From the NCBI GenBank assembly GCA_951406725.2, contig OX597824.1, positions 69,564,001-69,628,000 on the forward strand: 64,000 nucleotides of DNA. The letters are read 5' to 3'. Below are positions 3,071 through 12,252 of this stretch, one piece after another. Source of the stretch: Octopus vulgaris. Taxonomy: Eukaryota. Each line of letters begins with the position of its first letter. Within the stretch, counting starts at the first letter, position 1. A program made the translations under genes and the position numbers. The notes below the pieces were generated by a model that was not told the origin of the DNA, made no database searches, and saw nothing but the letters and a program-made list of their open reading frames with translations.

Positions 3071-3399
3071 TTTAAAATCGATTATCTTAATTGTTGAGGC
3101 AGCGATCGGGAATATCTAGAAGAATTATTTGGTCGGGGAGATATCTGTCGGAAGGCATATAGAGAACTTAATCCTGAATTTTCCGTAGAGATTATAAAAG
3201 GAAATAATGCTTGGTGAATGCGAATTTGAAACTATAGTATTCCAAAAACATTTCCGTCTACCTTCAAATAAATATTACTTAAACTGTATGTATATACTGA
3301 GTAGCTCCACTTTTGCTAAAAATAAGAGTTAAATTGACTCAAAGCCACAAACGCACGGTCTTAAATGACTGACAAAAGGAGGTAAGTCCCCAGGAACAT

Positions 3400-3455
3400 A
3401 GCCGGATCGCGATTTCGGATTTTTATGTAGACCATCTTAATCCTCATCAGCGACT
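3400..3455 (-). ncRNA. Type I hammerhead ribozyme, canonical core
   Basis: Minus strand: AGUCG-CUGAUGA-GGAUU-(17 nt)-AAUCC-GAAA-UCGCGA-UC^CGGCU. Stem I 5 bp, stem II 5 bp, palindromic stem III, AUC cleavage triplet. Confidence 0.85.
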
Positions 3456-3769
3456 CTTAACGCCTAGAGTTAAACTCAACTACCTCTGTCAGTCTTATAA
3501 GAAAAACCGTTGAAAACGTGTGCTGATTTCCAAAATTGCAAAAGTGTAAGCAAGAAATTAAAAAGAGTGGCTAATTAGCAATTAGAACCTGAAAACAAAA
3601 TGAACAGAGGTCACAAAAGTGGTGCTGGTCAGTACTCTTTAGGTTCCAATTACTAATAAGCCACCCTTTTCAATTTGATATATATATATATATAGATATA
3701 TATACGTGGGGGCGTGCGTGTGTGTGTAGGATGAGTGTATGTATGTACATATATAAATATATGTATGTA

Positions 3770-3801
<32 letters not shown>

Positions 3802-4017
3802 ATACAAAATAAGAAAATGGAGAAACACATCTTAATCAATGATCAACTACCAGATAATACCCAACCACATAATTTATTAAACCACTACATATGAACATTA
3901 AGGTCAAACATAATAATATAGAACAAAACAATGTACATGAAAGAGTAATATGATACAATAAGTACAGTATGTATAAGTGAATATAAATAAATAAATACAA
4001 ATATAAATATAAACTAC

Positions 4018-4144
4018 ATCTTATAGCTGTTTCGGCCATGCAGATATGGGTGCCTCATTATGCTCATATTAGCCATGTGTGGTAGGTCAATATGTAATTA
4101 TAAATTAGACACTTACAAAAATATCCCAAGGCCTCTTCAGAGAT
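4018..4144 (-). ncRNA. Type I hammerhead ribozyme with long stem II insert (left arm, stem III point change)
   Basis: AUCU-CUGAAGA-GGCC-(long insert)-GGCC-GAAA-CAGCUA-UA^AGAU. Confidence 0.65.
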
Positions 4145-4318
4145 TATGAAGAACAAACTAAATTAAATATGAAAATCAGAGGAGATACACCCATACTATA
4201 GTAGGTACATACCCATAATATATAATATATAATATAATATACATATACATATGAGTGCATATATCCATACTCCTATAGAACATATGTATGTATATTGCTG
4301 TATATTATTATTATTATA

Positions 4319-4382
<64 letters not shown>

Positions 4383-4509
4383 AGTATGGAAATATGCACT
4401 CATATGTATGTGTATATCATATTATATATTATATATTATGGGTATGTACCCACTATTGTATGAGTGTACCTCCTCTGATTTTCGTATTTAATTTAGTTTG
4501 TTCTTCATA

Positions 4510-4632
4510 ATCTCTGAAGAGGCCTTGCGATATTTTTGTGTCTCATTTATAACTACATATTGACCTATCACAAATGGCTAATATGAGCATAAGGAGGCAC
4601 CCATATCTGCATGGCCGAAACAGCTGTAAGAT
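4510..4632 (+). ncRNA. Type I hammerhead ribozyme with 88-nt stem II insert
   Basis: AUCU-CUGAAGA-GGCC-(88 nt)-GGCC-GAAA-CAGCUG-UA^AGAU. All core nucleotides present, GUA triplet. Confidence 0.8.
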
Positions 4633-5028
4633 GTAGTTTATATTTATATTTGTATTTATTTATATTCACTTATACATACTGTACTTATTGTATCATATTA
4701 CTCTTTCATGTACATTGTTTTGTTCTATATTATTATGTTTGACCTTAATGATCATATGTAGTGGTTTAATAAATTATGTGATTGGGTATTATCTGGTAGT
4801 TGATCATTGATTAAGATGTGTTTCTCCATTTACTTATTTTGTATTATTAATTTGTGGTAAAACATTTTACCTTTGCCCATATAATACAGTAAATGAATTA
4901 ACTGCATTGCAATTCTTAACATTTATGTATTAACTTTGTTGGGTGCTTCACTAGCAGTATATTGGATATATGTTATCCCATGGAGAGTTGCATTTACAAC
5001 CCCCATCTCAATTTGTATATATATATAT

Positions 5029-5233
5029 ATTTCTTTACTACCCACAAGGGGCTAAACACAGAGGAGACAAACAAGGATAGACAAAGGGATTAAGTCGATT
5101 ACATCGACCCCAGTGCGTAACTGGTACTTAATTTATCGACCCCGAAAGGATGAAAGGCAAAGTCAACCTCGGCGGAATTTGAACTCAGAACGTAACGGCA
5201 GACGAAATACGGCTCGCATTTCGCCCGGCGTGC
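5029..5233 (-). mobile_element. SINE family A
   Basis: Reverse complement of the family A consensus (CCCACAAGGGGCTAAACACAGAGG..GAATTTGAACTCAGAACG). Confidence 0.9.
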
Positions 5234-7691: not shown

Positions 7692-8327
7692 CATGTACAT
7701 ACAAAAGTTTTTATTCATCAGTATACACACCTTCATACAGATATACACACGCATCCATATGTACAACAATATGTATACATGTGTGTATATCAACACACAT
7801 ATGTATATGTGTATATATATATATATATGTATATACGCGTATGTATTTTCATGTATCTATCTATATCTATACCCATCTGTCTATATATATTTATATAGAG
7901 AGAGTGAGGAGGAAGGGGGAGTGTTATGTGTGGGGAAGAAGACAGACTGTGAGACAGAGAGAGATAATTAGCAAGATATGTTTTACTACTTCGCAATCGA
8001 GGGAGAAAAATGGTCATGAATAAGAGTAACACTGCACATAATATAGACAGTTGAAATAATTCGCGTTATTCAACTTTTCCATGCAGTTAGTTAGCATAAA
8101 AACGTCATCAAAGTGTTCTTAAAACCAAAACCACACCAAGGAAGGAAATCACTAAAATAATTTCAACCAGATGCAGGCATGCTTGTTTGGTTAAGAAGTC
8201 CGATTCCCAATCATAGGATTTGGGGTTCTGTCCCACTGCGCCGCATATTGAGCAAGTGTCTTCTACAATATCCACTGTCCAACTAATGTTTTGTGAGTGA
8301 ATATGGTAGATAAAAACTAAGTAATTA

Positions 8328-8828
8328 AGGCAGCGAGCTGGCAGAGACGTTAGCACGACGGGCGAAGTGCTCAGCGGTATTTCGTCTGCTTTTACGTTCT
8401 GAATTCAAATTCCGCCGAGGTCGACTTTGCCTTTCATCCTTTCGGGGTCGATAAATTAAGTACCAGTTACGCACTAGGATCGATAAAATCGACTTATTCC
8501 GTTTGTCTGTCCTTGTTTGTCCTCTGTGTGTTTAGCCCCTTGTGGGTAGTAAATAAATAAGTATTTCGTCTGCCGTTACGTTCTGAGTTCAAATTCCGCC
8601 AAGGTTGACTTTGCATTTCATCCTTTCAGGGTCGATAAATTAAGTACCAGTTACGCACTGGAGTCGATGAAATCGACTTAATCCGTTTGTCTGTCCTTAT
8701 TTGTCCCCTCTGTGTTTAGTTCCTTGTGGGCAATAAAGAAATAAGAAACGTTAGCACGCCGGGCAAAATGCTAACGGGTATTTCGTCTACCGTTACGTTC
8801 TGAGTTCAAATTCCGCCGAGGTCGACTT
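8328..8828 (+). mobile_element. Tandem multimer of SINE family A (about 3 units)
   Basis: GGCAGCGAGCTGGCAGA head, then repeated TATTTCGTCTG..CCTTGTGGG..AAAGAAATA units. Confidence 0.9.
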
Positions 8829-9545
8829 TTTTCCGAAAATGAAAACAACCAACTTACAGACACATTACAAATACAATCTGTAAGCAGAAAAGTAGCTGGC
8901 AGAATCGTTAGCACGCCAGGTGAAATGCTTAGCAGTATTTCGTCTGTCGCTACGTTCTGAGTTCAAATTCTGCCGAGGTCGACTTTGCCTTTTATCCTTT
9001 CGGGGTCGATAAATTAAGTACCAGTTACTCACTGGGGTCGATGTAATTGACTTAACTCCTTTGTCTGTCCTTGTTTGTCCCCTCTAAGTTTAGCCCCTTG
9101 TGGGCAATAAAGAAATAGGAATAGTAAAAGTATGCAAGACTTCTTTGAAGTTCAAAACCTGAGATTGTTTTTTGTCAGCTACCTTTCAATGATAGGAACT
9201 TTGTATTCTAGTTAGAAAGCACTTCCTTCTTATAGAAACAATTCAAACAATTAAAATTGATATAAATGCGCTGTCGGTCCAGCAACTGAACTGGTAAGCT
9301 TATGATCACGAGCCGAACACACTATCTATAACGGCATGCGTCTTTATATCCTCTCAACGACAGAGCCAAGATCAAATATCAGAGGGGAGTGTTGTATGCG
9401 ATAAAAATAAAACTGGGTCCCATACACGCAATATAGTGAATTGACATAAGCATCGTTTTACTGAGAAAATATAGGCAGTTGGTTGCCCCACTCCCGCCGC
9501 CCCTACTATTTTTCGGGTGTTTACAATGTAAGGATAATGAATATA

Positions 9546-9712
9546 GGCGCAGGCGCGTGTGTGTTGTTTGAAGCTTGCATTCCAACCACATGGTTCCGGG
9601 TTCAGTTCCACAGCGTGACACCTTGCGTAAGTGTCTTCTCCTGTAATCTCGGGTCTACCAAAGCCTTGTGTGGCGATTTGGTTGACGTAAACTGAAAGAA
9701 GCCCAATGTCTA
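9546..9712 (+). mobile_element. SINE family B 5' part
   Basis: GGCGCAGG..CCACATGGTTCCGGGTTCAG..AAAGCCTTGTG..AACTGAAAGAAGCCC. Confidence 0.85.
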
Positions 9713-9725
9713 TATACATTCAAAA

Positions 9726-9913
9726 TGTGACCGCGTGTGTACCGTTGGCGATTTTTTTCCTCCGTCTTCCCTTCTCTGGATCTTTCCTTTTCCTATGTTT
9801 CTGACGAAGAACTCTGATCGAAACGTTAAACCCCCTTCTTCCCTTCCTTCCTGAGCGTCCAATAATACTATATTTGTTCCACGTCCTCGCGTTGTTGTGT
9901 TTTCATGATTGGA

Positions 9914-9920
<7 letters not shown>
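9726..9920 (+). mobile_element. Short dispersed HHR-bearing element (PLE terminal-repeat / retrozyme-like); same family as 34450-34660
   Basis: Near-identical to 34450-34660 and ends at (TA)n. Confidence 0.75.
9797..9831 (+). ncRNA. Minimal type I hammerhead motif (stem II mismatch)
   Basis: GUUU-CUGACGA-A-GAAC-UCU-GAUC-GAAA-CG-UU^AAAC. Confidence 0.6.
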
Positions 9921-9946
<26 letters not shown>

Positions 9947-10344
9947 CTAGCAGTATCGCCCGGCGTTGCTCGGGTTTGTAAGGGAAATAACTATATAAGC
10001 ATTTTTAGAGAGTTATACCCAAAAAATATCAAAAAAAATGCATTGAAAATGGAAAAAAAATTATTGTAAATTTTTTTAAAATCGTTGACTCATCGTAGAC
10101 ATTTTTAGAGAGTTACTTACCTTATATAATAGCGAAAAAAATGAATTAAAATGGAAAAAAATGATGGTAAATTTTTTTTAAATCGTAGACTCATCGTAGA
10201 CGCGCGCTAATACCCAGAAGGGCTCGATATGAATCACGACTATAAGATACCCGGTTTGGGTTAAACTGCACCGCAAAATGTGGGAGTAGTTAGGAATCTA
10301 AATCGTAGGAGACAGACACACAACTTCACTTTTATATATAAAGA
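9947..10344 (-). mobile_element. Non-autonomous Helitron
   Basis: Minus strand starts TC(TTTATATATAAAAG), has the subterminal hairpin CCCG-AGCAACGC-CGGG and ends CTAG. Inserted between A and T with no TSD. Confidence 0.85.
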
Positions 10345-10368
10345 TATATACATACATACATACATACA

Positions 10369-10400
<32 letters not shown>

Positions 10401-10633
10401 CATATATTTACATATATATATAAATAGATGAAAGAATGGAATTGAACGACGATTTAAATCGTCGTTCAACCCCATTCTGTCATTTATTTATAGTAAAAAA
10501 ACACACAAATTTCCACACGAAAGCACGTGATTTCTGCCCTTGGCATGTAGCTTCAACCGTGCTTTCTGACGTGAATTTGCTACCCGGGTATCGGTTAACC
10601 GAATTATCCATACTAGGATAATTCATTCAACTA

Positions 10634-10688
<55 letters not shown>

Positions 10689-10690
<2 letters not shown>

Positions 10691-10970
10691 TCTTTTACTC
10701 TTTTGTTTCAGTCATTTGAGTGCGGCCATGCTGGAGCACCGCATTTGGTCGAACAAATGTACCCCAGGTCTTATTCTTTGTAATCCTAGTACTTATTCTA
10801 TCGATTTATTATGTCAAACCGCTAAGTTACGAGGACGTAAACACACCAGCATCGGTTGTCAAGCGATGGTGGTGGTGGTGGGGACAACTACAGACACACA
10901 TACACATATATATATATACATATATGACTGGCTTCTTTCAGATAGATACATGGATATACATAATACCCGA
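10689..10970 (-). mobile_element. SINE family B 3' part (locally duplicated at 14199-14478)
   Basis: CAGTCATTTGA..GCCATGCTGGAGCACC..CCGCTAAGTTACG family B tail. Confidence 0.85.
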
Positions 10971-11589
10971 CTGTTTAAAACAACATTTTCCCCCAAGAAA
11001 TTTAATTATTTCATATTCTTTTTGACTCTAGGTACAAGGCCCGAAATTTTCTAGGAGGGGATCAGTCGATATGATCGACCCCAGTATGCAACTGGTACTT
11101 AATTTATCGACCCCGAAAGGGGTTGATAACTTAAGTACCAGTTGCATATATAGCCTGCGCCTATATTCATTATCCTTACAATGTAAACACCCGAAAAATA
11201 GTAGGGGCGGCGGGGAGTGGGGCAACCAACTGCATAGATTTTCTCAAAAAAACGGTACTTATGTCTCTTCACTAAATTGCATGTATGGGACCCAGTTTTA
11301 TTTTTATCGCATACAACACTCCCCTCTGATATTTGATCTTGGCTCTGTCGTTGAGAGGATATAAAGACGCATGCCGTTATAGATAGTGTGTTCGGCTCGT
11401 GATCATAAGCTTACCAGTTCAGTTGCTGGACCGACAGCGCATTTATATCAATTTTAATTGTTTGAATTGTTTCTATAAGAAGGAAGTGCTTTCTAACTAG
11501 AATACAAAGTTCCTATCATTGAAAGGTAGCTGACAAAAAACAATCTCAGGTTTTGAACTTCAAAGAAGTCTTGCATACTTTTACTATTC

Positions 11590-12162
11590 TTATTTCTTTA
11601 TTACCCACAAGGGGCTAAACTTAGAGGGGACAAACAAGGACAGACAAAGGAGACAGTGAGTAACTGTTACTTAATTTATCGACCCCGAAAGATTGAAAGG
11701 CAAAGTCGACCTCGGCGGAATTTGAACTCAGAACGTAAAGACAGACGAAATACCTATTTGTTTACTACCCACAAGGGGCTAAACACAGAGGGGACAAACA
11801 AGGACAGACAAATGGATTAAGTCGATTACATCGACCCCAGTGCGTAACTGGTACTAAATTTATCGACCCTGAAAGGATGAAATGCAAAGTCGACCTCGGC
11901 GGAATTTGAACTCAGAACATAAAGACAGACGAAATACCTATTTGTTTACTACCCACAAGGGGCTAAACACAGATGGGACACACAAGGACAGACAAACGGA
12001 TTAAGTCGATTACATCGACCCCAGTGCGTAACTGATACTAAATTTATCGACCCTGAAGGGATGAAAGGCAAAGTCGACCGCGGCGGAATTTGAGCTCAGA
12101 ACGTAACGGCAGACGAAATACCGCTAAGCATTTTGCCCGGCGTGCTAACGATTCTGCCAGCT
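11590..12162 (-). mobile_element. Tandem multimer of SINE family A (3 units)
   Basis: Three CCCACAAGGGGCTAAAC..GACGAAATACC units. Confidence 0.9.
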
Positions 12163-12252
12163 ACTATTCTGCTTACAGATTGTATTTGGAATGTGCCTGT
12201 AAGCTGGTTGTTTTTATTTTCGGAAAATTCTAGCTTTACTGGATTGTGGAAG

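What the first reader, a model, noticed from the sequence alone, without database searches (positions are those of the whole stretch)
3800..4846. Two divergent HHR elements facing out from a (TA)n tract, each with a roughly 90-nt stem II insertion
Seen: about 470-bp inverted arms whose ribozyme-sense strands both start at the central (TA)n. Stem II GGCC/GGCC encloses 88 nt in the right arm. Such long inserts would be missed by standard HHR descriptors. The arms differ by many substitutions, so this is either an old inverted PLE-type terminus or two insertions into the same microsatellite. A read-through transcript would pair the arms and sequester the ribozyme (inference).
Basis: partly seen in the sequence, partly recalled or inferred. 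Interest (0 to 1): 0.75.

Follow-up and report, generated by a model that had tools for sequence, protein, structure and literature searches.

The report
Penelope retrotransposon stub with long-stem hammerhead
The mirror-image repeat is two clipped, back-to-back copies of the tail end of a Penelope-like jumping gene, likely left by one insertion into a TA repeat; that layout is well known, but the self-cutting RNA motif in each copy carries an unusually long, conserved hairpin whose role is untested.

Summary
The arms are real (3799-4277 minus, 4377-4847 plus; 453 of 471 aligned bases identical), each with a type I hammerhead core whose stem II encloses 88 or 92 nt. They are 5'-truncated 3' ends of a Hydra-clade Penelope-like element (PLE): walking upstream in genomic copies reaches an RT plus GIY-YIG ORF. 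The central (TA)n is an expanded tract inside the element's 3' UTR, not the target; the targets are the outer (TA)n. The right arm runs on about 170 nt (the PLE 'tail') to 5017. All 64 termini examined abut (TA)n, and 12 of 12 head-to-head pairs join one short and one long end, so one insertion event is most likely. This architecture is published. The 'insert' is a covarying rod extending stem II, 53-100 nt in three RT lineages about 50% identical, against at most 24 nt in 26 published Hydra rows. The left ribozyme is damaged; activity is untested. This scan has noted such elements, long stems and the end rule before on other pieces of this genome.

The parts
3782..3798 (.). Outer (TA)n target tract at the short 3' end of the left copy
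   Evidence: sequence; 34 short-type ends abut (TA)n in genomic copies
3799..4277 (-). Inverted, 5'-truncated copy of the PLE 3' end, finishing at the short terminus (no tail)
4018..4144 (-). Left hammerhead: intact CUGAAGA and GAAA, 100-nt stem II region (fold z -0.74), stem III broken by G16.2>A
4274..4277 (.). Head-to-head junction: a TATA shared by both copies (4-nt microhomology)
4274..5017 (+). Direct, 5'-truncated copy of the PLE 3' end, finishing at the long terminus (with tail)
4315..4380 (+). Central (TA)n: an expanded tract inside the element's 3' UTR, not the insertion target
   Evidence: the same flanks on both sides of a shorter TA run in many copies; array bounds
4510..4632 (+). 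Right hammerhead, type I, dimer-type: stem I ATCT/AGAT, CUGAAGA, stem II, GAAA, AC-AGCU-GU stem III, predicted cut after 4628
4521..4616 (+). Extended stem II: 96-nt imperfect rod, 70 nt paired, -33.2 kcal/mol, z -4.4
4845..5017 (+). Tail of about 170 nt between the two alternative 3' termini; in full-length copies it is the start of the 5' UTR, about 150 nt before the ORF
5016..5030 (.). Outer (TA)n target tract at the long 3' end
   Evidence: 30 long-type ends abut (TA)n

Best explanation
The two arms are 5'-truncated, head-to-head copies of the 3' end of a Hydra-clade Penelope-like retrotransposon, likely made in one insertion into a (TA)n tract. Shown: family identity, two fixed 3' termini about 170 nt apart, (TA)n at both outer ends, one short and one long end per pair, and a 4-nt TATA overlap at the junction. 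Inferred: the RT-endonuclease cut both strands of the TA tract, one cDNA was primed at the far start site and one at the near start site on opposite strands, both stopped early (at 4274 and at the edge of the internal TA run), and they were joined by microhomology. Each arm then decayed neutrally (7 private substitutions each over 4450-4844). The hammerhead is the family's pLTR ribozyme. It is predicted to cut only as a dimer through the palindrome ACAGCUGU, probably with help from the element's protein, and so to process tandem pLTR-ORF-pLTR transcripts of full-length elements. Its long stem II is a selected rod that likely points away from the core and may serve as a protein-binding or folding aid. 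At this locus the ribozymes are likely inert: no second sense copy nearby, a damaged left core, and mutual pairing in any read-through RNA.
For: Copies extend about 2.4 kb upstream into a GIY-YIG and RT ORF (Pfam RVT_1 E 1e-5 and GIY-YIG E 0.006, both below the curated cut-offs). Relatives carry open frames of 955-1091 aa with upstream pLTR and inverted copy. Hydra motifs RW(K/R), DKT, CxCx5C, CxxC/CxH are present and CCHH is absent (against section 11 of PMC8557442). In loci L001-L100, 34 of 65 copies reaching the short site stop there at (TA)n and the other 31 read on; 30 of 31 reaching the long site stop at (TA)n and 1 reads on into the 5' UTR; 12 of 12 head-to-head pairs are short+long, and 7 of 8 in six other subfamilies. 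The arms share two states (4562 G, 4616 C) absent from their 9 closest sampled relatives. Rod: 94.8% of 832 cells paired, 7 of 27 pairs with two-sided changes, slid controls 29-47%. Stem I, stem II base and the loop III palindrome change sequence across lineages and stay paired. Published: inverted 5'-truncated copy and tail at one end (PMC8557442, PMC3846280); both strands cut and extended, two RT start sites that define the tail, protein-assisted ribozyme (PMC11167929).
Against: The arms are no closer to each other (14 differences) than to subfamily members (11-21), and the tree does not resolve them as sisters; the two shared states are common in the wider family (21 of 42). No target-site duplication can be read in TA repeats. 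The one short+short pair (L134) has mirrored flanks and looks like a larger fold-back. Arkhipova et al. (PMC3846280) favour self-priming on an antisense template for head-to-head junctions. In context the right core is predicted to be trapped in a hairpin 4502-4507/4515-4520 (pair probability 0.73-1.0; stem I 0.0), and stem I is absent from the predicted homodimer. Only 29 of 56 copies keep every core and stem position, and 12 of 56 carry CCGAAGA. The 14 cross-lineage motifs were picked with a pairing filter, so their pairing counts are partly by construction. Cleavage was not tested.
Confidence: 0.85

Rival explanations
1. Two independent insertions of the same subfamily landed back to back at one TA-rich site.
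For: The family targets (TA)n, nested insertions at element ends occur (L037), and arm-to-arm distance lies within the subfamily range.
Against: The junction is a direct element-to-element join at a 4-nt overlap, 40 nt from the TA tract. The pair is short+long like 19 of 20 pairs, the arms decayed equally (7 and 7), and they share two states lacking in 9 of 9 closest relatives.
Confidence: 0.05
2. One insertion, but the inverted arm arose by fold-back self-priming or template switching on one cDNA or antisense RNA, not by two primings at the target.
For: Proposed for head-to-head PLE junctions with palindromes in PMC3846280 (passages); the junction here is the palindrome TATA.
Against: Fold-back does not by itself explain why the two ends use different fixed termini in 19 of 20 pairs, with either arm the longer one; in vitro both strands are cut and extended from two start sites (PMC11167929).
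Confidence: 0.08
3. The arms are units of a non-autonomous retrozyme or circular RNA, or a host-adopted ribozyme switch.
For: Hammerhead-bearing short repeats exist in this genome, one right next door; read-through pairing is predicted.
Against: Copies are a 5'-truncation series of a 5.5-6 kb coding element; no head-to-tail repeat of a short unit was seen among the blast hits. The left core is mutated and both arms show private decay.
Confidence: 0.02

Closest known systems
Hydra-clade C-terminal EN+ Penelope-like elements (Craig et al. 2021, PMC8557442; passages, section 11 and supplement parts with Files S1 and S2 read)
   Same: RWK, DKT, CxCx5C linker, CxxC/CxH, no CCHH; (TA)n targeting; hammerhead near the 3' end; inverted 5'-truncated copy (noted there for Penelope-13_HM).
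   Different: Element about 5.5-6 kb with a 2.4-kb 3' UTR and 955-1091 aa Asn-rich ORF, against generally under 3 kb. Stem II plus loop 53-100 nt against at most 24 nt in the 26 Hydra rows of File S2, including Hydra-1_oBim (7 bp, 8-nt loop). Tail about 80-180 nt against 30-40 bp.
[quoted passage not shown]
   Same: CUGANGA/GAAA core, 4-bp stem I, 2-bp stem III with palindromic loop; opposite-strand pairs 100-700 bp apart were already noted there.
   Different: Helix II there is 7-8 bp at most in the text read; here it is a rod of up to about 35 pairs. The nearest length seen in print is the 53-nt stem II region of the plant PLE-X1_sMoe (File S2 of PMC8557442).
PAc Poseidon element in vitro (Frangieh et al. 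2024, PMC11167929; parts 1-2 of 4 read)
   Same: Two RT start sites defining a tail, both strands cut and extended, AT-rich target, protein-assisted hammerhead.
   Different: Different clade; there the ORF starts within the ribozyme, here about 520-550 nt after the cut site; tail much longer here.
Discontinuous mammalian hammerhead (Martick et al. 2008; seen only as a reference title, otherwise recalled)
   Same: Core halves separated by a long segment.
   Different: Recalled as a long unstructured insert in an mRNA 3' UTR; here the segment is a covarying helix in a retrotransposon.

Membership tests
Penelope-like element (EN+) | Single ORF with RT and C-terminal GIY-YIG endonuclease | tested here: met
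   In family copies, not in the window: L091 contiguous from RT to hammerhead end; full frames in relatives. No ORF remnant in the window (tblastn empty).
Penelope-like element (EN+) | pLTR partial tandem, inverted 5'-truncated copy, optional tail | tested here: met
   L121, L128, L130, L137 self-alignments; two termini and short+long pairs
Hydra clade | RWK, DKT, CxCx5C linker, CxxC and CxH around E and N, no CCHH | tested here: met
   L122 and L134 have all (RWR form; RWK in L128, L130); L137 lacks the CxCx5C linker
Hydra clade | Insertion into (TA)n | tested here: met
   64 of 64 termini
Hydra clade | Generally short (under 3 kb); descriptive rather than defining | tested here: not met
   about 5.5-6 kb
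Hydra clade | Groups with published Hydra proteins in an RT tree | not tested
   Tree holds only this genome's copies; likeness to the published alignment was judged by eye
Type I hammerhead ribozyme | Conserved core and three stems with covariation | tested here: met
   right arm intact. Left arm fails at the 15.2-16.2 pair.
Type I hammerhead ribozyme | Self-cleavage after the NUH triplet | not testable with these tools
   only assembled contigs of uncertain RNA status were available
Nematis or Neptune clade | CX2-5CxxC linker and CCHH motif in the endonuclease | tested here: not met
   absent in L122, L134; seen instead in the unrelated element in L037
Non-LTR retrozyme | Short non-coding unit in head-to-tail tandem | tested here: not met
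   copies are truncations of a coding element

The most novel reading that the evidence does not exclude
An expanded branch of Hydra-clade PLEs uses an active hammerhead with a selected 53-100 nt stem II rod that docks the element's own RT-endonuclease and switches on dimer cleavage, a natural ribozyme form missed by short-loop descriptors; and its strict short-end/long-end pairs with 80-180 nt tails are the genomic footprint of twin priming by a dimeric enzyme, giving thousands of natural products to test the PLE insertion model.
Probability: 0.3. Interest if true: 0.62.

Novelty: new variant of a known kind. Interest (0 to 1): 0.36.

Why it matters
The locus itself is ordinary retrotransposon debris. 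The family matters modestly. First, at least 4,860 exact-pattern copies (2,088 plus 2,772, controls 0) of a hammerhead with a long covarying stem II would escape descriptors that allow 7-17 nt between the core halves, so ribozyme counts and 'lacks a hammerhead' statements for PLEs may be too low. Second, how PLEs form inverted ends and what their ribozyme does are open questions; the short/long rule and the rod give clean deletion and priming tests. Third, such 470-bp inverted pairs would be long double-stranded RNA when transcribed (inference).

Tried and rejected
Rfam scan: no hammerhead among the 150 rows shown, only microRNA models on microsatellites. My first clade call, Nematis (recalled motifs), was dropped after an earlier scan note pointed to Hydra and the motifs were checked. 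The RT ORF beside a copy in L037 belongs to another, Neptune-like family. Sequencing runs: no RNA holder on record was listed. Contigs from four runs guessed to be RNA cover family copies; one stops at 4628, one has 5 further unmatched letters there, and one runs across the site. This says nothing on cleavage, and no DNA control was obtained. One search failed to merge duplicate loci, so its counts were discarded and redone. One search used a mis-registered structure and was redone; two helix registers were off, and the anti-core hairpin was redone. Of 41 RT loci screened, 23 gave a motif with 53 nt or more between the core halves. Five young copies failed the stem I filter (the motif is visible by eye), two gave only short-stem motifs of uncertain ownership, and eleven gave none, mostly the 58-79% identity lineages. 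The RT tree is the quick version. Lunse et al. (PMC5785218) is not held, so it was not read. Searches for prior reports of long stem II or octopus hammerheads found none describing this form; the library lacks most subscription journals, Repbase and Dfam were not searchable, and supplements of PMC4209133 (descriptor limits) were not seen.

Full report
Observation. The two arms align over 471 bases with 453 matches, 18 substitutions and two 4-nt indels: 3799-4277 on the minus strand against 4377-4847 on the plus strand. Each holds CTGAAGA, GGCC, 88 nt (right) or 92 nt (left), GGCC, GAAAC, the palindrome AGCT and a cleavage triplet. The right reads GTA (predicted cut after 4628). The left reads ATA, which breaks the C15.2-G16.2 pair. 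The arm has no other copy in the window.

What the arms belong to. The window lies in a 2.8-Gb animal genome (G000); its repeats look octopus-like from recall, which I did not test. A search with the arm gave 1,767 candidates, 40 scored, the listed full-length hits at 94-96%. Flanks of 30 loci show that 4274-4376, including the central TA run, is element sequence present upstream in other copies, usually with a shorter TA run. Many copies also continue downstream through 4845-5017. Walking upstream led through about 2.4 kb of non-coding sequence to a GIY-YIG endonuclease and an RT frame; L091 is contiguous from RT to the hammerhead end. Pfam gave RVT_1 (E 1e-5) and GIY-YIG (E 0.006), both under the curated cut-offs. 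An RT search returned 151 matches, with open frames up to 1,091 aa. Full-length relatives show an upstream pLTR, the ORF, a 3' pLTR at (TA)n and often an inverted truncated copy. The window has no ORF remnant.

Clade. Section 11 of Craig et al. 2021 (PMC8557442) defines Hydra elements by RWK, DKT, a CxCX5C linker, CxxC and CxH around the conserved E and N, no CCHH, and (TA)n targeting. L122 and L134 show all of these (RWR form; RWK in L128 and L130); L137 lacks the linker. No tree with published proteins was made. The element is about twice the usual Hydra length.

How the inverted pair arose. In loci L001-L100, merged by genome position, 65 copies reach the short terminus near 4844: 34 stop at (TA)n and 31 read on. 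Of 31 reaching the long terminus near 5017, 30 stop at (TA)n and 1 reads on into the 5' UTR. All 12 head-to-head pairs with both ends readable join one short and one long end; 24 of 64 ends were in such pairs, a lower bound because many loci had only 1.5 kb of flank. In six other subfamilies 7 of 8 pairs follow the rule; the exception has mirrored flanks and looks like a larger fold-back. The window pair is short on the left and long on the right, joined at a shared TATA at 4274-4277. Over 4450-4844 each arm has 7 private substitutions and one 4-nt indel, and both share two states missing from their 9 closest relatives. Against: their distance (14) lies within the range to those relatives (11-21) and the tree leaves them unresolved. 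The inverted copy and one-sided tail are published (PMC8557442 passages; PMC3846280 passages). Frangieh et al. (PMC11167929, parts 1-2) found both strands cut and extended and two RT start sites that bound the tail. My inference is priming on both strands at the two start sites, early stop, and microhomology joining. The tail here is about 170 nt, and about 80-180 nt across subfamilies, against 30-40 bp in those papers.

The long stem II. The right 96-nt segment folds as one imperfect rod (-33.2 kcal/mol, z -4.38, 0 of 200 shuffles); the left has decayed (z -0.74, 44 of 200). On 31 of the 80 distinct motifs collected, a 27-pair structure has 94.8% of 832 cells paired and 7 pairs with two-sided changes, against 29-47% for slid controls; related sequences inflate such scores. 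Among 56 distinct copies found by similarity, 53 keep GGCC 5', 55 keep GGCC or GGCT 3', 52 keep the stem III palindrome, 12 have CCGAAGA, and 29 keep everything. Exact patterns find 2,088 copies of the GGCC group and 2,772 of a GTAC group, with 0 in reversed controls. Three RT lineages about 50% identical all carry 53-100 nt between the core halves. In 14 chosen motifs stem I (52 of 56), the stem II base (52 of 56) and loop III self-complementarity (27 of 28; AGCU, GAUC, AAUU, ACGU, AUAU, AUGU) stay paired while changing sequence; these motifs passed a pairing filter, so the counts are partly by construction. Of 41 RT loci, 18 gave no long motif under the filter. In File S2 of Craig et al. the 26 Hydra rows have at most 24 nt there, and one plant PLE-X row has 53 nt. 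My searches found no report of this long form, within the limits of the library.

How the ribozyme likely works. Stem III has only two pairs as a monomer (pair probability about 0), but ACAGCUGU is a perfect palindrome: -11.1 kcal/mol as a duplex against -4.1 for the left arm's version. That is the dimer-type design of PLE hammerheads (PMC4209133). Folding in context traps the first core half in a hairpin, which fits the need for protein help reported for PAc but also counts against spontaneous activity. A read-through RNA would pair 457 of 471 right-arm bases with the left arm. The locus is therefore likely inert. Expression and cleavage are unshown.

Verdict. A known kind of insertion product of a known clade, carrying a ribozyme variant and tail length that I did not find described. 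Earlier notes of this scan on other pieces of the same genome report the same elements, the long stems and the end rule; I took the Hydra lead from them and tested it and the rule here.

Noticed in passing
window 3294-3680 (-): A second hammerhead family right beside the finding: 27-nt stem II region, GAAAT-CGCG-ATC stem III. A unit of about 327 nt, 670 candidates in the genome, with head-to-tail restarts and inverted partners; retrozyme-like.
   Followed up: partly
window 34526 (+): Small hammerhead-like motif, CTGACGA with a 12-nt stem II region and GAAAC-GTT.
   Followed up: no
window 8323-12227: Large inverted repeats built from 184-nt tandem units of the repeat that also follows the finding at about 5023-5230; SINE-like from recall.
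   Followed up: no
L037 3718-6960: A Neptune-like PLE with CCHH-type endonuclease and inverted ends inserted at the terminal (TA)n of a family copy.
   Followed up: partly
L128 oriented 6637, L132 6667 and others: Whole subfamilies carry CCGAAGA (U4>C) in the core; 12 of 56 copies. The youngest subfamily has a weak stem I and a C-U mismatch at the fourth stem II pair.
   Followed up: partly
L134 1-1997 and 4948-6945: 100% identical inverted duplication that includes the flank beyond the (TA)n: secondary fold-back or assembly artefact.
   Followed up: partly
L122 2214-5078, L134 2200-5472: Long asparagine-rich segments between RT and endonuclease, as described for rotifer Penelopes in PMC3846280.
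   Followed up: no
L085, L086, L087, L100 (contig C20, 8.78-8.83 Mb): Tandem array of a host reading frame of up to 736 aa, each repeat carrying a family copy, 94-97% alike: the element was duplicated along with the gene.
   Followed up: no
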